Below the pieces are notes generated by a model. It made no database searches. It saw nothing but the letters and a program-made list of their open reading frames with translations, and was not told the origin of the DNA. A program made the position numbers and the translations under genes. DNA of 8,975 nt from a plasmid, in the sequence record CP031559.1; one strand, 5' to 3'. Every line of letters begins with the position of its first letter. The stretch's first letter is position 1. This document shows, in pieces, positions 1,295 through 8,975 of the stretch.

Positions 1295-1576
1295 ATGTTA
1301 AAAGATGTAGAAATAGGAGTTAAATTTTATAAAGAATTTGGAAAATTAGAAAAACAATTAGTTAAATATCAAAGTAAGGTTTTAGAAATTAAAAAACAAA
1401 TGAAGGAGATTAAAAAGCAATATTCTCAAGCTAAGAAAGATGAGAATTTATCTAATAAATATACTCCTAATGATGAGCTAAAACAAGATTTATTAGATAT
1501 TGATAATCCTAATACGACTGAAAACTTTAAACCTAAAAATGCTAGTGAAATTTGGCAATATGCTCTTAATTCTTAG
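1295..1576 (+). CDS. Putative antitoxin (93 aa) of the YafQ/RelE-type toxin immediately downstream
   Basis: ORF with AAGGAG SD. Its stop lies 8 nt before the toxin start, which has its own AGGAG SD, giving a classic bicistronic TA arrangement. The product is Lys-rich and helical. Assignment is by position only. Confidence 0.55.
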   Translation: MLKDVEIGVKFYKEFGKLEKQLVKYQSKVLEIKKQMKEIKKQYSQAKKDENLSNKYTPNDELKQDLLDIDNPNTTENFKPKNASEIWQYALNS

Positions 1577-1584
1577 GAGCTTAA

Positions 1585-1854
1585 ATGTTAGAAATTGAGT
1601 TAAAAAAGAAATTCACTAAGGATTTAAAAAAGCATATTTTAAATCAAAAAATTGAGTTAGAAGTGTTTGACTTAGTGGTTGAAAATTTAAGAAATCAAAT
1701 TCCATTGGATAAAAGATTTAAAGACCACTCTTTAAGTGGAACATACAAAGACTGTAGAGAGTGCCACATTAAGCCTGATGTTTTGCTTGTGTATAGAGTG
1801 AAAGATAATGTTTTAACTTTGGTTAGGCTTGGAAGTCATAGTGAGTTGTTTTAG
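1585..1854 (+). CDS. YafQ/RelE-family mRNA interferase toxin (89 aa), H. pylori HP0894/HP0892-like
   Basis: The C-terminal half ...KDHSLSGTYKDCRECHIKPDVLLVYRVKDNVLTLVRLGSHSELF has the conserved YafQ-type His residues and terminal ...GSHSELF. It is strongly reminiscent of H. pylori HP0894-type toxins. Confidence 0.85.
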   Translation: MLEIELKKKFTKDLKKHILNQKIELEVFDLVVENLRNQIPLDKRFKDHSLSGTYKDCRECHIKPDVLLVYRVKDNVLTLVRLGSHSELF

Positions 1855-2276: not shown

Positions 2277-2349
2277 AGGGATTTGGGGTTGCAACACCCT
2301 AAATAACGAAGCTGTATGGTTTCTCATTTTTGGGGTTAAAATGAATAAA

Positions 2350-2447
2350 ACAGAACTTCTTACGAGTGATAACAGAACTTCTTACGAGTGATAACAGAAC
2401 TTCTTACGAGTGATAACAGAACTTCTTACGAGTGATAACAGAACTTA
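2350..2447 (+). repeat. Iterons: 4 complete + 1 partial tandem copies of the 22-bp unit ACAGAACTTCTTACGAGTGATA, followed by an AT-rich (DUE-like) stretch; replication origin
   Basis: Perfect 22-bp periodicity starting at 2351, 2373, 2395, 2417 and 2439 (partial). No spacers, so not CRISPR. Located ~330 bp upstream of repA, as for iteron-regulated theta replicons. Confidence 0.9.
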
Positions 2448-2781: not shown

Positions 2782-4401
2782 ATGAATACGAATTTTGATC
2801 AACTTAGAAAACAAGAATTGGAATTACGAAAATTATTAGAAGAATTAGATACATTCCCACAAACCCCACAAATTAAACTGCAAAAACAAAAAATACAAAC
2901 TTACATAGACAAGATAACACCAAGTATTTTGAGCGGTTTTAATCAAAAATTCAAAGAAATTACAGAAAATTCACATGAGTTTAAAAAAGAAAAACCCACA
3001 CCCAACAAAGCACCACAAACCACCCCCACACCATGCAAGGATTTAGTGGTTAGCACCCACAAAAATAACGCCTATACCACCTACCACAATAACGCTAATA
3101 AGGTTAATCTAGGGAAATTGAGCGAAAGGGAAGCCAATCTTTTATTCGCTATTTTTCAAAAACTCAAAGATCAAGGGAATACCCTCATTCGTTTTGAACC
3201 GCAAGATTTGAAACAAATGATCATGGTCAAATCCAACCTGACCAACAGACAATTATTGCAAATCCTCAAAAACTTGCTTGACAACATAGGCGGTGCTAAT
3301 TTTTGGATCATTAGAGAGCATGTTGAAAATGGCGAAATCTATGAAGATCACACTAGCTACATGCTTTTCAAACAATTTGAAATCCGTATCCATAAGCCAA
3401 CCCAAACTATAGAATACTTAGATGTCCAACTCAATGATAGCTATCAATACTTGCTCAACAATCTAGGAATGGGCGGTCAATACACTTCTTTCAAACTTTT
3501 AGAATTCCAAAGAGTGAGAGGCAAATACGCTAAAACGCTCTATCGCTTGCTCAAGCAATACAAAAGCACAGGGATTTTGAGCGTGGAATGGGGTCAATTC
3601 AGGGAGCTTTTAGACATTCCAAAAGATTACAAAATGGAAAACATCGATCAAAAAGTCTTAACTCCAAGCCTCAAAGAACTCAGAAAAATCTATCCTTTTG
3701 AACACTTGAGCTACAAAAAAGAACGCCGAAGCCACGACAAGCGTAAGGTAACCCACATTGATTTTTATTTTGAGCAATTGCCACAGGGTGAAACCAAGCA
3801 ACAAAAACAAGCCAATAAGCAACGCGCTAAAAGGGATATTAAGCTTGTGGCATGGGATATTCACAACCAAATCGCTAAAAGAAACGCCAAAGCCACTATG
3901 GAAGCTAGGTTGCTTGAACTCAAAACCTTGATTGGCTATCAGTTCAGGCACAACAATGGGACTATTTTACAGGTTGATGACGCTACTTTTGAAAAGAATC
4001 AAATGTTTTTGCATGTTTCAACCAACAAAAAAAATTCTCAAAAATTGCTTGTATCAAGCAAGGCATTCGCTTTAGAACTTCTGTTTGTTAGTGGATACAG
4101 CCTGAAAAAAGACAGCTTGATAGAAGAAATTGATCCCCCTAAAATCCACCCTATCACCAACGAACCAATTAAGGAATTTGCAGAATACATCGGCAAAACG
4201 ATCCACATCACTAATTTCAATGTGGACAAATGCCCTGAGGGGATCAACAACTACCTGAAAATCACTAGGATTGTGAAACTGAACGACAATCGGATCTGTA
4301 TCTCAATCCAAGATGTGGACAAGCCTGACAAACTATTGAAGCCTTTCATCGCTAAAGATGAAAAACATTTGAAGAATTGGTTCAAGAAACACTACCACTG
4401 A
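2782..4401 (+). CDS. repA: Plasmid replication initiator RepA (539 aa), iteron-binding theta-replication type as on H. pylori cryptic plasmids
   Basis: Largest plus-strand ORF. It directly follows the iteron array and AT-rich region. Antisense ORFs inside it (3658..3951, 4038..4250) are compositional artefacts. Confidence 0.75.
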   Translation: MNTNFDQLRKQELELRKLLEELDTFPQTPQIKLQKQKIQTYIDKITPSILSGFNQKFKEITENSHEFKKEKPTPNKAPQTTPTPCKDLVVSTHKNNAYTTYHNNANKVNLGKLSEREANLLFAIFQKLKDQGNTLIRFEPQDLKQMIMVKSNLTNRQLLQILKNLLDNIGGANFWIIREHVENGEIYEDHTSYMLFKQFEIRIHKPTQTIEYLDVQLNDSYQYLLNNLGMGGQYTSFKLLEFQRVRGKYAKTLYRLLKQYKSTGILSVEWGQFRELLDIPKDYKMENIDQKVLTPSLKELRKIYPFEHLSYKKERRSHDKRKVTHIDFYFEQLPQGETKQQKQANKQRAKRDIKLVAWDIHNQIAKRNAKATMEARLLELKTLIGYQFRHNNGTILQVDDATFEKNQMFLHVSTNKKNSQKLLVSSKAFALELLFVSGYSLKKDSLIEEIDPPKIHPITNEPIKEFAEYIGKTIHITNFNVDKCPEGINNYLKITRIVKLNDNRICISIQDVDKPDKLLKPFIAKDEKHLKNWFKKHYH

Positions 4402-4434: not shown

Positions 4435-5154
4435 ATGCCAACTAATGATTTATCTAAACTCATAGAAAAACTAAATCATGAAAAAAAGAATGCTATTAAA
4501 AATGGCATTTACCACTTAATCCAAATTAAATTTTCTTATAATTCTAATCGCATTGAGGGAAGCAGTTTGACCTACGAACAAACCGCTCATATTTTTGATA
4601 AATCCGCTCTTATAACTGAAAAAAACGAAAATATTAGACTTGATGATATTTTTGAAACCATCAATCATTTTGAATGCGTGAATTACTTGCTTGAAAGCTA
4701 TAAAGAACCTTTGAGTTTAGAATACTTTAAGACTTTACACAAAATCTTAAAAAATAATTGCTCTGATGAAGTTATTGGTGATTTTAAAAAACACCCTAAT
4801 TTTGTAGGTGATAGCGCCACAACAAGACCCCAATTAGTTGGAAGCGAATTAACAAATCTTTTGCAACGCTACCACAGCCTAACTGCAACAAGTTTGGAAA
4901 ACATCATAGATTTTCATGTGGCTTTTGAAAAGATACACCCTTTTAGCGATGGCAATGGTAGAGTGGGGCGATTAGTCATGTTTAAAGAGTGTTTGAAAAA
5001 CAATATCATACCCTTTATCATAGAAAACGAACACAAAGCTTTTTACTATAGGGGTATTAGAGAATATCACAAGACAAAAGGTTATTTGAAAGATACCATT
5101 TTGCAAAGTCAAGATAATTTCAATGAAATGGTTAGCTATTTCTTTTCTAAGTGA
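4435..5154 (+). CDS. fic: Fic/Doc-family protein (239 aa), class II (intramolecular inhibitory helix), putative AMPylating toxin/effector
   Basis: Canonical Fic motif HPFSDGNGRVGR (HPFx[D/E]GNGRxxR) in the C-terminal half. N-terminal SNRIEG matches the inhibitory [S/T]xxxE[G/N] motif. AAGGA SD before the ATG, 33 nt after the repA stop. Confidence 0.9.
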   Translation: MPTNDLSKLIEKLNHEKKNAIKNGIYHLIQIKFSYNSNRIEGSSLTYEQTAHIFDKSALITEKNENIRLDDIFETINHFECVNYLLESYKEPLSLEYFKTLHKILKNNCSDEVIGDFKKHPNFVGDSATTRPQLVGSELTNLLQRYHSLTATSLENIIDFHVAFEKIHPFSDGNGRVGRLVMFKECLKNNIIPFIIENEHKAFYYRGIREYHKTKGYLKDTILQSQDNFNEMVSYFFSK

Positions 5155-5281
5155 AACCGCTTGTTTTTGCTTGTGTGCTTTTGTTTTTTGCGTTTTTAGT
5201 TGTAGGTGGTATCAATAGTCGTTTTTTTGCTTTGCGTTGGTTGAAAGTAATTTTAGATAGCAAATCGTGGGATTGAATATA

Positions 5282-6445
5282 TTAAATTTTTACTTTGCAT
5301 AGGAATACACATGTCAAAATAAGCGTGACTATAAAATGTACAGCGATAACTATAGTCGGAGAAAAAATAAGTAGCTCCAAACTTGTTATGCCTAAAATAA
5401 TAACAGAAATTACTCGTGAGACACTAGATTTTAGAGAAGTAAGGGATGAGATTTTCTCTTTGCTGACATAAAGAGAAAATTGATAACTTACAATAAAATC
5501 TATGTATGTAAACAAGGCAACACTGATCATATAGGCACTAACAAATAGCAATATGTCCATACTTAGCAATAGTGCACTAGCAAGTCCAGTTAAAAAGATC
5601 ATGGTAATAGTCATATATCGGTTATACGAGTTGGCGTTACAAAAATGAACGAGAATTCCTATAATTTGAAATGATATATAAAATATAAACAAGTAGTTTT
5701 CTGTAATCTGTTTGTCTAGAAAGTAGGCTTGCCATAATTGAAAATGACTTTGAAAAAAGATTTGCAAAATTAAACTGAGTAGAATTAGATTTTTAAGAAG
5801 TGTTTTATCTTTTAGCTCTCTAAAACTTTCCCTTACATGTTGTTTTAATATCTGCAACTGTCGCTTTTTTTCTAGTTTATGAGAAGAATCGTCTTTAAAA
5901 AATAAAATAATGACCGAGATACACAGTAATGTAAACAAGACTGATATGTAGTACATGGAGACACCATATTTTAAATACAAGAATGAGCCTGAGCAACTTC
6001 CAATTATCAACCCTATAAAACTGATTTGGCGACTTTTAGCAATGAATGGTGATAAATCTTCTTTTTGGTCTTTGATGTTAGTAATGAGAGTGGCATCAAT
6101 GGTACCTGAGTCTAGAGCGTTTGATAACCCATAAATGCTCCATGCTAGAACCATACTAACAAAGCTGTCTAACCATAGAACACAAAAAAAACTGCATACT
6201 AAAACTAATTTTGAAACAATAAAAAGCATCTTTCTATTTATTAAATCTGCTAACACACCACTCGGATATTCTGAGAGTAAAACACACAAACTGTAGGTGG
6301 CTTGTATGATCATAATTTGACTTAATGATAATCCTTTATTGAGCAATAATGGTGTTAAAATGGCGTGTGGCAAAGACTGAGCAATGACAAGTAGCATCGT
6401 TGCACAGTAATAAGAGAGTATATTTACTTTTAGTGCTTTGTTCAT
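5282..6445 (-). CDS. mccC: MFS-family efflux transporter, MccC-like (387 aa); export/self-immunity pump for microcin C-like compound
   Basis: Highly hydrophobic with ~12 predicted TM segments. Immediately downstream of (11 nt after) the MccB-like gene on the same strand. Confidence 0.75.
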   Translation of the reverse strand: MNKALKVNILSYYCATMLLVIAQSLPHAILTPLLLNKGLSLSQIMIIQATYSLCVLLSEYPSGVLADLINRKMLFIVSKLVLVCSFFCVLWLDSFVSMVLAWSIYGLSNALDSGTIDATLITNIKDQKEDLSPFIAKSRQISFIGLIIGSCSGSFLYLKYGVSMYYISVLFTLLCISVIILFFKDDSSHKLEKKRQLQILKQHVRESFRELKDKTLLKNLILLSLILQIFFQSHFQLWQAYFLDKQITENYLFIFYISFQIIGILVHFCNANSYNRYMTITMIFLTGLASALLLSMDILLFVSAYMISVALFTYIDFIVSYQFSLYVSKEKISSLTSLKSSVSRVISVIILGITSLELLIFSPTIVIAVHFIVTLILTCVFLCKVKI

Positions 6446-6456
6446 ATTAAGAAACT

Positions 6457-7509
6457 CTATAAATTATGATTAGAGCAAAATACACATTTATAATCTACAC
6501 TAGATGGCAAAGTGTATGTTTTGAAAGTTTTGTTGTCAACTCCGAATCGGCAGTTCAGGGATTTTATGGAGTTAAAATCATCAGACATAAATTGTATAAT
6601 ATCTGAAATTGCTAGGCTAGAAGCGATAGAGTTATTTAAAAAACTTGATGGTGCCTGCATGCGGTCATTTATAAGACATATGTCCAGATTTTTATCACTG
6701 TCTTTTTTATCATCTAGAGCAAAACTATTATGGCAAAAAGGACAACAAGACAATGAAGGGATATAAAAAGGACCGATAAGAGATATGTCATTTAAATAGC
6801 CAATATTTAAAAATGGAATGAGACACTTACAAAAAAATCTCGTTGCCAATTGTACTGTGTTTGGATTATCTCCAGAAACAATTCCAAACAAATTTTCTTT
6901 TTTATGTTTAGAAAAAATTTCTTCAAGATTGTATTCACTGGCAAAATCATCTACTATCTCAATATTGATGTCAAATCTACTAGAAAGAGCCTGCTTTATG
7001 GTAGATGTTTTATATTGTGAAATGTAATTCTTGTCAAACAAGAACTGGCGGTTAAGATTGCTGGGATCAACGGTATCCTTATCTAACAATATTAGTTTTT
7101 TTGGATAAAAACTTGCTAGAGCATAGCTTACAAAATTTCCAATACCCCCACAACCAATAATGATGAAAATAGTTCTTTTAAAATTATTTATTGTTAATTC
7201 TGGTTTATTTGACATTAAATCGATAAACAGGTGGTTCTTAAAGTTTTGTTTGTCATTTGGATTTAGTATGAATGAGGTAATAAGTTTATTAGCAACTAGC
7301 TTATCAAAAATATCATGTTCTATTTTGTTAGCTTCCATAAAACTTTTTATCTCATTCATTCTTTTCTTCATTCTCAGAAAAACCAATAATCTCAGTGATT
7401 TTTCAAATTCATTATGATCAACGCAATACTGATATGTTCCAAGACCAATAATATTTTCTGTATCTGTTTGACCAACACATGCACTAAAACTAGTTTGATA
7501 ACACTGCAT
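6457..7509 (-). CDS. mccB: MccB-like ThiF/E1-type peptide C-terminal adenylyltransferase (350 aa)
   Basis: Rossmann motif IIIGCGGIGNF, followed by LLDKDTVDPSNLNRQ (the ThiF/MoeB/E1 signature). Two CxxC pairs (CCPFC..., ...CVFC) as in the MccB Zn site. Length is identical to E. coli MccB (350 aa). Preceded by a 7-codon Asn-terminal peptide gene. Confidence 0.85.
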   Translation of the reverse strand: MQCYQTSFSACVGQTDTENIIGLGTYQYCVDHNEFEKSLRLLVFLRMKKRMNEIKSFMEANKIEHDIFDKLVANKLITSFILNPNDKQNFKNHLFIDLMSNKPELTINNFKRTIFIIIGCGGIGNFVSYALASFYPKKLILLDKDTVDPSNLNRQFLFDKNYISQYKTSTIKQALSSRFDINIEIVDDFASEYNLEEIFSKHKKENLFGIVSGDNPNTVQLATRFFCKCLIPFLNIGYLNDISLIGPFYIPSLSCCPFCHNSFALDDKKDSDKNLDICLINDRMQAPSSFLNNSIASSLAISDIIQFMSDDFNSIKSLNCRFGVDNKTFKTYTLPSSVDYKCVFCSNHNL

Positions 7510-7562
7510 AAATAACCTTTCCTGAATAACTAACTCTACTCCGATAAAACTTTGAGCAATTA

Positions 7563-7579
7563 CACTCTAAAATAGAGTG
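7563..7579 (-). terminator. Hairpin CACTCTA-TTT-TAGAGTG in the mccA-mccB intergenic region; candidate partial terminator/attenuator
   Basis: 7-bp perfect stem with 3-nt loop seen directly. The downstream U-tract is weak (TAATTGC...). Resembles the read-through terminator between mccA and mccB in E. coli. Confidence 0.3.
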
Positions 7580-7593
7580 CAAAATTTTTCAAT

Positions 7594-7617
7594 TTAATTA
7601 CGGTATGACAATTTCAT
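7594..7617 (-). CDS. mccA: Microcin C-like precursor heptapeptide MccA (MKLSYRN-stop)
   Basis: Minus strand reads ATAAAGGAGTAAGCC ATG AAA TTG TCA TAC CGT AAT TAA. This gives an AAGGAG SD with 6-nt spacing, a 7-codon ORF ending in Asn, and placement 85 nt upstream of mccB. That is the defining architecture of mcc operons (E. coli MccA = MRTGNAN). Confidence 0.75.
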   Translation of the reverse strand: MKLSYRN

Positions 7618-7788
7618 GGCTTACTCCTTTATAACTCTAAAAATTACGGAAATAATAACAATAATTATGATTTTTTTATTTACTGATTACATATTCGTAA
7701 TAATATTTTTTGTAGTTTGAGTATATTTTGCACGATAAGGTGGCACTAAAGTAATTTTTACAGATATAAAAAAAGAATTTTTTAACCC
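7618..7788 (-). promoter_or_regulatory. Promoter region of the mcc operon (between mobA stop and mccA); several AT-rich -10-like hexamers, e.g. TATACT after TGCAAAA
   Basis: Non-coding, 170 nt, extremely AT-rich. Exact -10/-35 not resolvable by eye. Confidence 0.3.
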
Positions 7789-8975
7789 TTACCGCCCGTA
7801 CCCACGAATATAATTTCTCTCATTTTCTATTTTTTGATTGTGTTCTCTAATCTTTTTATCCAGCTGTGTTGTTCTTGTATAAAACTCTCTTGTTTCTTGT
7901 TCCATTCGCTTTGAAAGTCGCTCATCTGCTCTTTGAAAGAAGTTTCTAATTCGTTCTTTTGCGTTTCTGTAGATGTCTTTAATTGCGTTAATTGCGTCTC
8001 GTGTTCTTGCATAAAGGTTGTGTAGGATTGTTCTAGCTCTTGTTTTAGAGTTGTTTCTAAAATCTCTAATTGTGTTTTCAATTCTTTGTATTGAGCTTGT
8101 GAAATCTCTTGCTCTTTGATTTGAGCGTTCTGTAATTCTTGTTGTAAAATCCGCTCGCACATTGTCTGTAAATTGTTGTTGAGCGAGATTTCTTTCTGTT
8201 CTAATGTTTGCATTAATTGATTCAATTCGGCTCTCTCTGCTCTCTCTAAAGCTTGAAGTTTGGCTAATAATGTGTTGTGCGTTTGGGATAGCGTTTCGTA
8301 GCTCTCTTTCAAGTTCAAGGTTTCTGTCTCTAATCTCTCGTAATTCTTGCTTAGCCTTTAAAATTCTTCTGTAACTTTCTCTAGCTTGATCAATAGCTCG
8401 TTTTTGTCGTTCTCTAAACTCTCTATTTCGCTGTTCTTTTCTTTGAGCAAGATCTCTTTCTCGTTCTGTAAGTTCTCTACTTCGCTGATTAAAGCGCTCT
8501 GTAGCTTGTTTAAGTATTATTCCTGCATTTTTTCCCCTTATTTCTTGGTCGGTATTTGATCGTAAATTCTCTGTAGATTGGCGTTGTTTAGTTGGTCTAT
8601 TTCTCGTTTTAACTGAAAGACTTCTTTCTGTGAAAGCTCTAATTCCTTGTTTTTGCTGGGTAGAATGATTAGAAAGTATGCCCCCACTAATATTACCCCC
8701 ATAATAACTAGCCCCATAATGAAAGTTAGGGGCATTAGTAAGGATTTCTTGGCTAGGTTCTTGTGGATTTATTTCTCTAGCTCTTGTAAATCCTCTTGTA
8801 TAGTTTCCTTGTATTTCTTGTTGGTTCTCTCCAGCTCTAGGTAGCTGTTCTTTAGGTTCTCGTGGTTCTTTTGAATTAAATTCGTGTAGCTGTTTATAGT
8901 ATTGCTGTTTGTATTCAATGTGTCTGTGTAGCTTGTTTTCAAGCTCTCGCAAAAGTTCTGCATGGTTGTTGTTAG
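7789..8975 (-). CDS. mobA: 3' part of relaxase MobA (low-complexity R/E/N/Q-rich C-terminal domain); open to the window end and in frame with the partial mobA at 1..796 if circular
   Basis: Frame open from 8975 to TAA at 7789-7791 with no stop. The annotated 'M' at 8952 is a TTG. Codon phase from 8973 downward matches the phase that continues from position 1 (codon = comp(1),comp(8975),comp(8974) = ACT). Composition matches the end of the N-terminal fragment (...ARQRENQRERSNSYT). Confidence 0.6.
   Translation of the reverse strand, partial: NNNHAELLRELENKLHRHIEYKQQYYKQLHEFNSKEPREPKEQLPRAGENQQEIQGNYTRGFTRAREINPQEPSQEILTNAPNFHYGASYYGGNISGGILSNHSTQQKQGIRAFTERSLSVKTRNRPTKQRQSTENLRSNTDQEIRGKNAGIILKQATERFNQRSRELTERERDLAQRKEQRNREFRERQKRAIDQARESYRRILKAKQELREIRDRNLELERELRNAIPNAQHIISQTSSFRESRESRIESINANIRTERNLAQQQFTDNVRADFTTRITERSNQRARDFTSSIQRIENTIRDFRNNSKTRARTILHNLYARTRDAINAIKDIYRNAKERIRNFFQRADERLSKRMEQETREFYTRTTQLDKKIREHNQKIENERNYIRGYGR
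7827..8318 (-). CDS. mobB: MobB/MbeB-like coiled-coil protein nested in an alternative frame of mobA (start uncertain; the annotated start is TTG)
   Basis: Second open minus-strand frame inside mobA (the third frame is closed). Product is E/Q/K/L-rich coiled coil. ColE1-type mob regions encode mbeB/mbeD inside mbeA in another frame. Confidence 0.4.
   Translation of the reverse strand: MNLKESYETLSQTHNTLLAKLQALERAERAELNQLMQTLEQKEISLNNNLQTMCERILQQELQNAQIKEQEISQAQYKELKTQLEILETTLKQELEQSYTTFMQEHETQLTQLKTSTETQKNELETSFKEQMSDFQSEWNKKQESFIQEQHSWIKRLENTIKK
8538..8735 (-). CDS. mobD: MobD/MbeD-like small membrane protein (65 aa: N-terminal TM helix + coiled coil) nested in alternative frame of mobA
   Basis: Genuine ATG start. 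N-terminus MPLTFIMGLVIMGVILVGAYFLIIL is a clear TM helix followed by charged coiled coil. Same alternative frame as the mobB-like ORF. Confidence 0.45.
   Translation of the reverse strand: MPLTFIMGLVIMGVILVGAYFLIILPSKNKELELSQKEVFQLKREIDQLNNANLQRIYDQIPTKK
8769..8963 (-). CDS. Additional 64-aa ORF in the same alternative frame of mobA (coiled-coil-like); possibly an N-terminal segment of a mobB/D-type protein or non-functional
   Basis: ATG at 8963. The stop is immediately followed, in frame, by the mobD-like ORF. Supported only by frame openness and protein-like composition. Confidence 0.2.
   Translation of the reverse strand: MQNFCESLKTSYTDTLNTNSNTINSYTNLIQKNHENLKNSYLELERTNKKYKETIQEDLQELEK

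What the first reader, a model, noticed from the sequence alone, without database searches (positions are those of the whole stretch)
7594..7617. Seven-codon ORF MKLSYRN with AAGGAG SD directly upstream of mccB
Read directly on the minus strand: AAGGAG-TAAGCC-ATG AAA TTG TCA TAC CGT AAT TAA. The terminal Asn is the residue required for MccB-catalysed adenylation. E. coli MccA is also 7 aa ending in Asn. A Tyr-Arg-Asn C-terminus differs from E. coli (Asn-Ala-Asn), which may mean different uptake/processing specificity in target cells.
Basis: seen in the sequence. Interest (0 to 1): 0.8.

Follow-up and report, generated by a model that had tools for sequence, protein, structure and literature searches.

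The report
Known Helicobacter pylori microcin C precursor gene
The seven-codon gene is real, but it is the already published and biochemically tested mccA gene of Helicobacter pylori plasmids, which encodes the peptide part of a "Trojan-horse" antibiotic like E. coli microcin C, so the finding is correct and not new.

Summary
On the minus strand, AAGGAG (7629..7624), a 6-nt spacer and ATG AAA TTG TCA TAC CGT AAT TAA (7617..7594, MKLSYRN) lie 84 nt upstream of a 350-aa MccB-type ThiF adenylyltransferase (7509..6457). An MFS exporter, MccC, follows (6445..5282).

The signature is not chance: one such ORF in the window against 0.004 expected.

The 24-nt frame is identical in 26 other H. pylori copies. 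It lies inside the longest substitution-free run (51 nt) of the operon alignment. Seven of eight distant mccB-mccC loci carry an unrelated seven-codon ORF ending in Asn at the same place, with none in 108 kb of background.

- The ORF is annotated as MccA in plasmid HPP12.
- MKLSYRN was adenylated in vitro by HPP12 MccB, which is 346/350 identical to the enzyme here.
- The product inhibited E. coli through YejABEF (Bantysh 2014).
- Ribosome-induced termination at the mccA-mccB hairpin was shown for pHPG27 (Zukher 2014).
- NikR represses the operon in response to nickel (Vannini 2017).

Production of the compound by H. pylori itself has not been shown in the papers I found.

The parts
7594..7617 (-). 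mccA: seven-codon ORF ATG AAA TTG TCA TAC CGT AAT TAA, encoding MKLSYRN, the precursor peptide of a microcin C-like peptidyl-adenylate
   Evidence: Read directly. Identical in 26 other H. pylori copies. Annotated as MccA (HPP12_p03) in CP001218.1. The same peptide was adenylated in vitro.
7618..7629 (-). Shine-Dalgarno AAGGAG (7629..7624) plus the 6-nt spacer TAAGCC. A CATG methylation site overlaps the start codon (7618..7615).
   Evidence: No substitutions in 23 aligned sequences; two plasmids carry a 1-nt insertion in the spacer. The CATG at the mccA start is noted in PMC7379913.
7652..7660 (-). Candidate extended -10 promoter element TGTTATTAT. The inferred transcription start is near 7645.
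   Evidence: pattern only, so inferred. A start at 7645 places +137 at 7509, which fits the +1..+137 template of Zukher et al. that reaches mccB. Not experimentally mapped here.
7619..7745 (.). Region equivalent to the NikR ChIP-seq Peak_1 of pHPG27 (6009-6135). It marks a nickel-responsive promoter/operator region directly upstream of mccA.
   Evidence: Supplementary Table 3 of PMC5385501, mapped onto the window with an offset of 1610. The published motif TRTTA-N15-TAWTA was not found here at one mismatch or fewer.
7560..7582 (-). [quoted passage not shown]
   Evidence: hairpin alone -11.0 kcal/mol. Two variable columns in 23 sequences. Termination just after the homologous pHPG27 hairpin occurred only when ribosomes were present.
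7510..7593 (-). The 84-nt mccA-mccB intergenic region
   Evidence: Same length as reported for pHPG27. It is 82-85 nt in the other copies.
6457..7509 (-). mccB: 350-aa ThiF/E1-like adenylyltransferase with an N-terminal peptide-clamp domain. ATG start here, GTG in about half of the plasmids.
   Evidence: Pfam ThiF E=3e-20. E. coli MccB is the best PDB sequence hit, E=7e-32. AlphaFold model pLDDT 94.6; full-length match to E. coli MccB with TM 0.85. 346/350 identical to the active HPP12 MccB.
5282..6445 (-). mccC: 387-aa MFS exporter, 11 nt downstream of mccB
   Evidence: Pfam MFS_1 E=8.5e-16. 379/387 identical to HPP12 MccC. pN/pS 0.19 among plasmids.

Best explanation
This is mccA, the first gene of a minimal mccABC operon on a pHel4/HPP12-type Helicobacter pylori plasmid. 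A promoter just upstream is bound and repressed by nickel-loaded NikR in strain G27, and it drives transcription through mccA. Ribosomes loading on the strong SD and the seven-codon ORF translate MKLSYRN. Ribosome binding also triggers termination at the hairpin 12-34 nt past the stop codon, so a short mccA message is made in large excess over the mccABC read-through message. That supplies substrate peptide in excess over enzyme. MccB holds the peptide with its N-terminal clamp domain and uses two ATP to convert the C-terminal Asn, via a succinimide, into an N-P-linked aspartamide-adenylate (MKLSYRD-AMP). The MFS pump MccC exports it, which also protects the producer. In a sensitive cell the peptide acts as a Trojan horse. 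It is imported by an oligopeptide ABC transporter (YejABEF in E. coli) and trimmed by aminopeptidases, and the released non-hydrolysable aspartyl-adenylate blocks aspartyl-tRNA synthetase. Shown here: the ORF, its signals, its conservation, and the MccB and MccC identities. Shown in the literature for identical or near-identical sequences: in vitro adenylation, activity on E. coli through YejABEF, ribosome-induced termination, and NikR/nickel repression. Inferred: production, export and a competitive role in H. pylori itself, and the exact transcription start.
For: Sequence read directly. Chance expectation 0.004 per window. MccB identity: Pfam ThiF, best PDB hit E. coli MccB at E=7e-32 with the GCGGIGN and two CxxC motifs aligned, and a full-length fold match at TM 0.85 that includes the N-terminal domain. 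MccC is an MFS protein. The 24-nt ORF is identical in 26 other H. pylori copies, and the 51-nt stretch 7630..7580 is the longest substitution-free run in the 2.6-kb operon alignment. mccB and mccC are under purifying selection, pN/pS 0.27 and 0.19. Seven of eight distant mccB-mccC loci (31-46% MccB identity) have a seven-codon ATG ORF ending in Asn with an SD 42-292 nt upstream, against 0 hits in 108 kb of background; most have an intergenic hairpin. Two of those loci also carry MccF-like (Peptidase_S66) or MccE-like (GNAT) genes. Literature: annotated as MccA in HPP12; MKLSYRN adenylated by HPP12 MccB, with the product active on E. coli via YejABEF; MccB here is 346/350 identical to that enzyme; ribosome-induced termination in pHPG27; NikR ChIP peak directly upstream of mccA and nickel repression of mccB and mccC.
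Against: No production of the compound by H. pylori has been reported in the papers found; Zukher 2014 states that none had been shown for any mcc-like operon. The plasmid has no mccD/E/F-type maturation or immunity genes, so self-protection rests on MccC alone or on chromosomal genes. On the mcc strand the hairpin is not followed by a U-tract (tail UUGCUCAAAGUUUUAUC), so it is not a textbook intrinsic terminator, and the in vitro termination assay used E. coli RNA polymerase. Within H. pylori there are no substitutions at all in the ORF, so a synonymous versus non-synonymous test has no power: 7 invariant third positions are expected about 27% of the time at the mccB/mccC third-position rate (my calculation from the counts). 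Some plasmids carry broken mccB or mccC, so the system is dispensable.
Confidence: 0.93

Rival explanations
1. The mini-ORF is only a regulatory leader. In this view ribosome loading controls termination before mccB, the peptide is not the MccB substrate in vivo, and MccB modifies something else.
For: Ribosome binding, even without amino acids or tRNA, is enough to induce termination after the hairpin in pHPG27, so the ORF has a regulatory role that does not depend on its product.
Against: The synthetic peptide MKLSYRN is adenylated by the cognate enzyme. The only feature shared by the seven-codon ORFs of distant loci is length plus the terminal Asn, the chemically required residue, which a purely regulatory leader would not need. 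The MccB N-terminal peptide-clamp domain is conserved.
Confidence: 0.03
2. The in vivo product differs from the simple peptidyl-adenylate made in vitro. It might carry another nucleotide or extra modifications added by chromosomal enzymes, as in the peptidyl-cytidylate mcc systems of Yersinia and Bacillus (recalled from my own knowledge of that literature).
For: Only in vitro synthesis with ATP has been reported. For Yersinia the same authors caution that the natural compound may differ from the in vitro product.
Against: The plasmid encodes no extra modification enzymes. MccB here has no fused methyltransferase-type domain: the 350-aa protein matches E. coli MccB over its full length. The in vitro product is already bioactive.
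Confidence: 0.04
3. The ORF is a chance short reading frame in AT-rich intergenic DNA.
For: The window is 33% G+C and contains 8 seven-codon ATG ORFs.
Against: Only this one combines an SD with a terminal Asn, with an expected count of 0.004. It is invariant in 27 sequences while the upstream 160 nt vary at 31% of columns. Equivalent ORFs are present in 7 of 8 distant loci.
Confidence: 0.003

Closest known systems
mccABC operon of H. pylori plasmids HPP12 (CP001218.1, HPP12_p01-p03), pHPG27, pHel4, pHPF30 and pHPM8
   Same: Identical mccA (MKLSYRN, identical 24 nt), identical SD, the same 84-nt intergenic region and hairpin, and the same gene order mccA-mccB-mccC next to the relaxase gene.
   Different: Only allelic differences. 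MccB has 4 substitutions in 350 residues and MccC 8 in 387 relative to HPP12. The mccB start is ATG as in HPP12, not GTG as in pHPG27. The leader upstream of the SD is the HPP12/G27 allele. Unlike pHPM8, mccB here is intact.
E. coli microcin C (McC) operon mccABCDEF of pMccC7, with MccA = MRTGNAN
   Same: A seven-residue precursor ending in Asn with a basic residue at position 2. An MccB with the same two-domain fold (TM 0.85) and the same ATP and Zn motifs. An MFS exporter MccC. A long mccA-mccB spacer with a ribosome-dependent terminator. The product enters E. coli through YejABEF and targets AspRS.
   Different: No sequence similarity in the peptide beyond M1, the basic residue at position 2 and N7. 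MccB is only about 24-25% identical. There is no mccD or mccE-NTD (aminopropylation) and no mccE-CTD or mccF immunity gene. The operon is regulated by NikR and nickel, a control these papers do not describe for the E. coli operon.
Heptapeptide mccABC clusters of Firmicutes and others validated by Bantysh et al. 2014 (S. thermophilus MKGTILN, L. johnsonii MHRIMKN, B. washoensis MDHIGFN)
   Same: The minimal three-gene layout and a 7-aa Asn-terminal precursor. MccB relatives from Firmicutes are 41-47% identical to this one, closer than E. coli MccB. MKGTILN was re-found here upstream of a Streptococcus gallolyticus-type mccB.
   Different: Different peptide sequences, chromosomal location in most cases, and different hosts.

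Membership tests
Microcin C-like peptide-nucleotide (minimal mccABC) cluster / MccA precursor | A short ribosomally translated ORF whose product ends in Asn, preceded by a ribosome-binding site | tested here: met
   MKLSYRN* with AAGGAG 6 nt upstream. Chance expectation 0.004.
Microcin C-like peptide-nucleotide (minimal mccABC) cluster / MccA precursor | The ORF lies upstream of, and on the same strand as, an MccB-type ThiF/E1-like adenylyltransferase with a Gly-rich ATP motif and two CxxC zinc motifs | tested here: met
   mccB lies 84 nt downstream. Pfam ThiF. The alignment to E. coli MccB shows GCGGIGN, CCPFC/CYEC and CVFC/CSVC aligned. G118, G120, G123, C258, C341 and C344 are invariant and C255 is nearly invariant in 46 homologues.
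Microcin C-like peptide-nucleotide (minimal mccABC) cluster / MccA precursor | MccB carries the N-terminal peptide-clamp domain that ThiF and MoeB lack | tested here: met
   Model pLDDT is 96-98 over residues 1-80. Full-length superposition on E. coli MccB gives TMq 0.85 over about 350 columns, against about 270 columns and TMq about 0.6 for ThiF and MoeB. The N-terminus is identical to that of the active HPP12 enzyme.
Microcin C-like peptide-nucleotide (minimal mccABC) cluster / MccA precursor | An MFS-type exporter (MccC) encoded directly downstream of mccB | tested here: met
   A 387-aa MFS_1 protein 11 nt after mccB. The same ThiF-MFS pairing occurs in all 8 distant loci.
Microcin C-like peptide-nucleotide (minimal mccABC) cluster / MccA precursor | A long mccA-mccB intergenic region containing a terminator-like hairpin | tested here: met
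   An 84-nt spacer with a 10-bp hairpin of -11 kcal/mol. Caveat: there is no U-tract on the mcc strand. Function was shown for pHPG27 only in the literature.
Microcin C-like peptide-nucleotide (minimal mccABC) cluster / MccA precursor | The peptide is C-terminally adenylated by the cognate MccB | not testable with these tools
   Published for the identical peptide with HPP12 MccB. The enzyme here differs at 4 of 350 residues.
Microcin C-like peptide-nucleotide (minimal mccABC) cluster / MccA precursor | The compound is produced and exported by the native host and inhibits competitors | not testable with these tools
   Not reported in the papers found. Zukher 2014 says no production by mcc-like operons had been shown. 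Transcription in vivo is documented.
E. coli pMccC7-type full mccABCDEF operon | Presence of mccD/mccE (aminopropylation, acetyltransferase immunity) and mccF (S66 peptidase immunity) | tested here: not met
   No GNAT, methyltransferase-like or Peptidase_S66 domain in any major ORF of the window. The literature describes the H. pylori operon as the minimal mccABC form.

The most novel reading that the evidence does not exclude
The ribosome-sensing switch of the H. pylori mccA terminator could be a direct competition for the terminator's 5' arm. Before the 3' arm is transcribed, the predicted fold pairs the SD (GGAGU, 7627..7623) with the 5' arm (ACUCU), and the 3' arm (AGAGU) mimics the SD. 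A 30S subunit sitting on the SD would free the 5' arm and let the terminator form. [quoted passage not shown] Both elements are invariant in all H. pylori copies.
Probability: 0.1. Interest if true: 0.35.

Novelty: already known. Interest (0 to 1): 0.08.

Why it matters
As a discovery it does not matter: the gene, its peptide, its enzyme, its terminator and its regulator are all published. It matters as an annotation point. RefSeq/PGAP records of 20 or more H. pylori plasmids annotate mccB and mccC (as 'ThiF family adenylyltransferase' and 'MFS transporter') but omit the seven-codon mccA, so automated pipelines keep missing it. The open biological question is whether H. pylori actually makes and uses MKLSYRD-AMP in the stomach, for example against plasmid-free strains when nickel is low. 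That question is interesting but cannot be addressed from sequence.

Tried and rejected
(1) Synonymous versus non-synonymous test within H. pylori. There are no substitutions in the 24 nt across 27 sequences, so the test has no power. I replaced it with a run-length comparison and a deep comparison across distant loci.

(2) Single-protein scan of genome contigs for non-pylori relatives. It returned only H. pylori copies and contaminant fragments. The homology search was needed to go further.

(3) NikR operator motif TRTTA-N15-TAWTA. It gave no hit in the promoter region at one mismatch or fewer, and the 5 hits in the window are below the chance expectation of 8.5. The operator could not be placed by motif, only by mapping the ChIP peak.

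(4) First antiterminator idea: the leader copy of UUUUAGAGU (about 7643..7635) pairing with the terminator 5' arm. I rejected it as a general mechanism because about half of the plasmids have a different leader allele (UUAAGUUAUA) that lacks it, and the duplex is only -6.4 kcal/mol.

(5) SD/5'-arm pairing. It is predicted at -7.0 kcal/mol against -11.0 for the terminator, and inspection of the hairpin sequences in distant loci shows no consistent equivalent. I keep it only as a low-probability idea.

(6) Sigma-70 consensus promoter scan. It gave nothing above the shuffle expectation. H. pylori promoters lack a -35 element (my own knowledge), so I used an extended -10 pattern instead.

(7) Rfam: no family matches in the window.

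(8) Supplement of Zukher 2014, sought for template coordinates: not held.

Full report
**The observation.** Reading the minus strand gives AAGGAG (7629..7624), TAAGCC (7623..7618) and ATG AAA TTG TCA TAC CGT AAT TAA (7617..7594), which encodes MKLSYRN. The window (33% G+C) contains eight seven-codon ATG ORFs on both strands. Two end in Asn, and only this one also has a Shine-Dalgarno (SD) sequence. First-order Markov simulations of the window give 0.004 such ORFs on average.

**Surroundings.** Megablast shows that the window is a Helicobacter pylori plasmid of the pHel4/HPP12 type. Thirty H. pylori plasmids match 5200-7800 at 95-99% identity, and the whole window matches pUM196, pUM146 and pUM171 at about 96%.
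- Downstream of the mini-ORF on the same strand is a 350-aa ThiF-family protein (7509..6457; Pfam E=3e-20).
- Eleven nucleotides further on is a 387-aa MFS transporter (6445..5282).
- An 84-nt intergenic region separates the mini-ORF from the ThiF gene. It contains a 10-bp inverted repeat, UUGCACUCUA-UUU-UAGAGUGUAA (7582..7560; -11.0 kcal/mol).
- The rest of the window carries ordinary plasmid functions: a Rep3 initiator with 22-bp iterons, a Fic protein, a YafQ toxin, a NikA/MobC-like protein and the relaxase gene that runs across the window ends.

**Is the ThiF protein an MccB?**
- By sequence, its best solved relatives are the E. coli MccB entries (3h5a, 3h5n, 6om4; E about 1e-31). The next hits, E1 enzymes, are at 1e-6.
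- The alignment conserves the GCGGIGN nucleotide loop and both CxxC pairs. These residues are invariant or nearly so in 46 homologues.
- phmmer aligned only residues 89-348, so I tested the N-terminal domain by structure. An AlphaFold2 model built on the 46-sequence alignment has mean pLDDT 94.6, with 96-98 over the first 80 residues.
- The model superposes on E. coli MccB over its full length (TMq 0.85, about 350 columns). ThiF and MoeB match only about 270 columns at TMq about 0.6. The MccB-specific peptide-clamp domain is therefore present.

**Conservation.** I fetched the homologous stretch of 22 plasmids and 4 more H. pylori contigs.
- The 24-nt ORF is identical in all 26.
- In the 23-sequence alignment, the 13 nt of SD plus spacer and the 24 nt of the ORF contain no substitution. 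By comparison, 31% of columns vary in the 160 nt upstream, 10.7% in the intergenic region, 10.5% in mccB and 12.2% in mccC.
- The longest substitution-free run in the whole 2.6-kb operon is 7630..7580 (51 nt): the SD, mccA and the sequence up to the hairpin.
- With zero substitutions, a synonymous versus non-synonymous test is uninformative. Seven invariant third positions would occur by chance about a quarter of the time.
- mccB and mccC are under purifying selection (pN/pS 0.27 and 0.19). A few plasmids carry broken copies, which fits an accessory trait that is selected but dispensable: mccB is truncated in L025 and carries an insertion in pUM196, mccC is truncated in L008, and pHPM8 mccB is defective.

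**Deep comparison.** A homology search with MccB found 113 relatives. The nearest outside H. pylori is a chromosomal H. mustelae protein (49% identity). Next come Firmicutes (41-47%), then Borrelia and Entomospira plasmids and Histophilus (33-37%).
- I fetched eight loci. In all eight an MFS gene follows the ThiF gene.
- One locus also has a Peptidase_S66 (MccF-like) gene and another a GNAT (MccE-like) gene.
- In seven of the eight, a seven-codon ATG ORF ending in Asn with an SD lies 42-292 nt upstream of mccB: MDLLMRN, MAGPLRN, MKGTILN, MFTLPRN, MRGKTLN, MRGRRLN and MELMNKN.
- The same pattern occurs nowhere else in 108 kb of those loci on either strand, and stable hairpins follow most of the ORFs.
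- The peptides share only their length, the initiator Met and the terminal Asn, which is what a substrate defined by its C-terminal chemistry would show.
- The exception is the H. mustelae-like locus, which instead has a longer ORF ending in ...CCDYKTFNN.

**What is already known.**
- The ORF is annotated as MccA (HPP12_p03) in the P12 plasmid record.
- Höfler et al. 2004 linked these plasmids to microcin production (cited in PMC3120642).
- Severinov et al. 2007 predicted the heptapeptide ORFs (ref. 16 of PMC4010828).
- Kawai et al. 2011 list 'microcin (7-aa peptide; MKLSYRN)' for pHPF30.
- Bantysh et al. 2014 showed that synthetic MKLSYRN is adenylated by recombinant HPP12 MccB, and that the pHPM8 enzyme lacking the N-terminal 46 residues is inactive. 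They also showed that MKLSYRD-AMP inhibits E. coli B but not a yejB mutant. The enzyme in this window is 346/350 identical to HPP12 MccB, with an identical N-terminus.
- Zukher et al. 2014 showed for pHPG27 that the 84-nt spacer's hairpin terminates transcription only when ribosomes are present, as in E. coli.
- Vannini et al. 2017 found mccB and mccC repressed by nickel through NikR. Their ChIP Peak_1 (pHPG27 6009-6135) had a nickel-dependent enrichment of log2FC 5.05 and a footprint at 9.7 nM NikR. My mapping places this peak at window 7619-7745, directly upstream of mccA's ATG, so the 'PmccB' of that paper is the promoter upstream of mccA.
- Yano et al. 2020 reported large changes in mcc transcripts when CATG methylation is lost, and noted the CATG at the mccA start (the site is at 7615-7618).

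**Mechanism.** The best-supported account is the published one, and it applies here without modification.
1. A nickel/NikR-controlled promoter drives a transcript starting about 28 nt upstream of mccA. The candidate is the extended -10 element TGTTATTAT at 7660..7652, with an inferred start near 7645.
2. Ribosome loading on mccA yields the peptide and induces termination at the hairpin. This gives a large excess of short mccA message over the mccABC read-through.
3. MccB adenylates the C-terminal Asn, and MccC exports the product.
4. In target cells the peptide is imported and degraded, releasing an aspartyl-adenylate mimic that inhibits AspRS.

Steps shown for this exact peptide, or for near-identical DNA: adenylation, bioactivity on E. 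coli, ribosome-dependent termination, NikR binding and in vivo transcription. Steps inferred: the transcription start, and production, export, self-immunity and ecological role in H. pylori.

**Points that do not fit perfectly.** On the mcc strand the hairpin is followed by UUGCUCAAAGUUUUAUC rather than a U-tract. The pattern scanner called it a terminator only on the opposite strand. A predicted fold of the nascent RNA pairs the SD with the terminator's 5' arm. That would make ribosome binding an anti-antiterminator, but the pairing is weak and has no consistent counterpart in distant loci, so I rate it a low-probability idea.

**Verdict.** The feature is already known in detail. Its only practical value is as a reminder that RefSeq/PGAP annotations of these plasmids omit mccA.

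Noticed in passing
L030:2749-2856 (H. mustelae-like chromosomal contig; mccB homologue P0004 at L030:3001-4044): The nearest non-pylori MccB relative (49% identity, followed by an MFS gene) has no heptapeptide ORF upstream. It has a longer ORF ending in Asn-Asn: MNKVKHLQCCDYKTFNN from the ATG at 2803 with an AGAGGGA SD-like element, or 30-35 aa from upstream ATGs. The stop lies 144 nt before mccB. This may be a longer, Cys-containing MccA-type precursor.
   Followed up: partly
L031-L037, 42-292 nt upstream of each mccB homologue: Candidate heptapeptide MccA ORFs with an SD in distant mccB-mccC loci: MDLLMRN, MAGPLRN (Pilibacter termitis), MKGTILN (S. gallolyticus-type; same peptide as published for S. 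thermophilus), MFTLPRN (Gemella), MRGKTLN (Borrelia duttonii plasmid), MRGRRLN (Histophilus somni) and MELMNKN. There were no background hits in 108 kb. I did not check whether the ones other than MKGTILN are already published.
   Followed up: partly
window 7507-7509 (mccB start codon): The mccB start is ATG here and in HPP12 but GTG in about half of the plasmids, including pHPG27. Bantysh et al. treated the A-to-G change in pHPM8 as destroying the start codon, yet RefSeq annotates full-length 350-aa proteins from the GTG in the others.
   Followed up: partly
L025, L008, L002 (pUM196), L017 (pHPM8): Some plasmids keep a perfect mccA but have a damaged operon: mccB is truncated to 39 aa in L025, mccC to 91 aa in L008, pUM196 has an in-frame insertion that makes MccB 406 aa, and pHPM8 has the published defective mccB.
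   Followed up: partly
L027, L028, L029 (contigs of 'Lysobacter prati' SYSU H10001 and 'Flagellimonas olearia' CL-SS4 assemblies): Tiny contigs (320-777 bp, coverage 1.4-2.1) encode fragments 96-100% identical to H. pylori MccB. They are almost certainly H. pylori plasmid contamination in unrelated genome assemblies.
   Followed up: no
window 7563-7579, + strand: The mccA-mccB hairpin is followed by a T-run (CAAAATTTTT) only when read on the + strand. The pattern scan therefore calls it a terminator for the strand opposite to mcc. On the mcc strand there is no U-tract.
   Followed up: partly
window 7631-7637 and 7690-7790: The mccA leader and promoter region occurs as two alleles among plasmids (UUAGAGUUAUAAAGGAG versus UUAAGUUAUAAAAGGAG or UUAAGUCAUAAAAGGAG). 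It is far more variable (31% of columns) than the operon itself, even though it holds the NikR-bound promoter.
   Followed up: partly
window 2349-2446 and 2782-4401: Four and a half perfect 22-bp direct repeats (AACAGAACTTCTTACGAGTGAT) lie upstream of a 539-aa Rep3-family initiator gene. This is a typical iteron-type theta replicon origin.
   Followed up: no
window 1295-1854 (+): A YafQ/ParE-family toxin gene (1585..1854, E=7e-30) is preceded by a 93-aa ORF (1295..1576) with no significant Pfam hit, probably its antitoxin. A 26-bp tandem duplication (1248-1299) overlaps the start of that ORF.
   Followed up: no
window 4435-5154 (+): A Fic/DOC-family protein gene is convergent with mccC. Some related plasmids carry two Fic genes. 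I saw no evidence of a functional link to the mcc operon.
   Followed up: no
window 7789-8975 (-) continuing at the window start: An open frame with no stops runs from the window end down to 7789. It is the C-terminal part of the MOBP relaxase gene, so the window is a circular plasmid opened inside that gene. In HPP12, mobB and mobD are annotated inside the relaxase gene in other frames.
   Followed up: no
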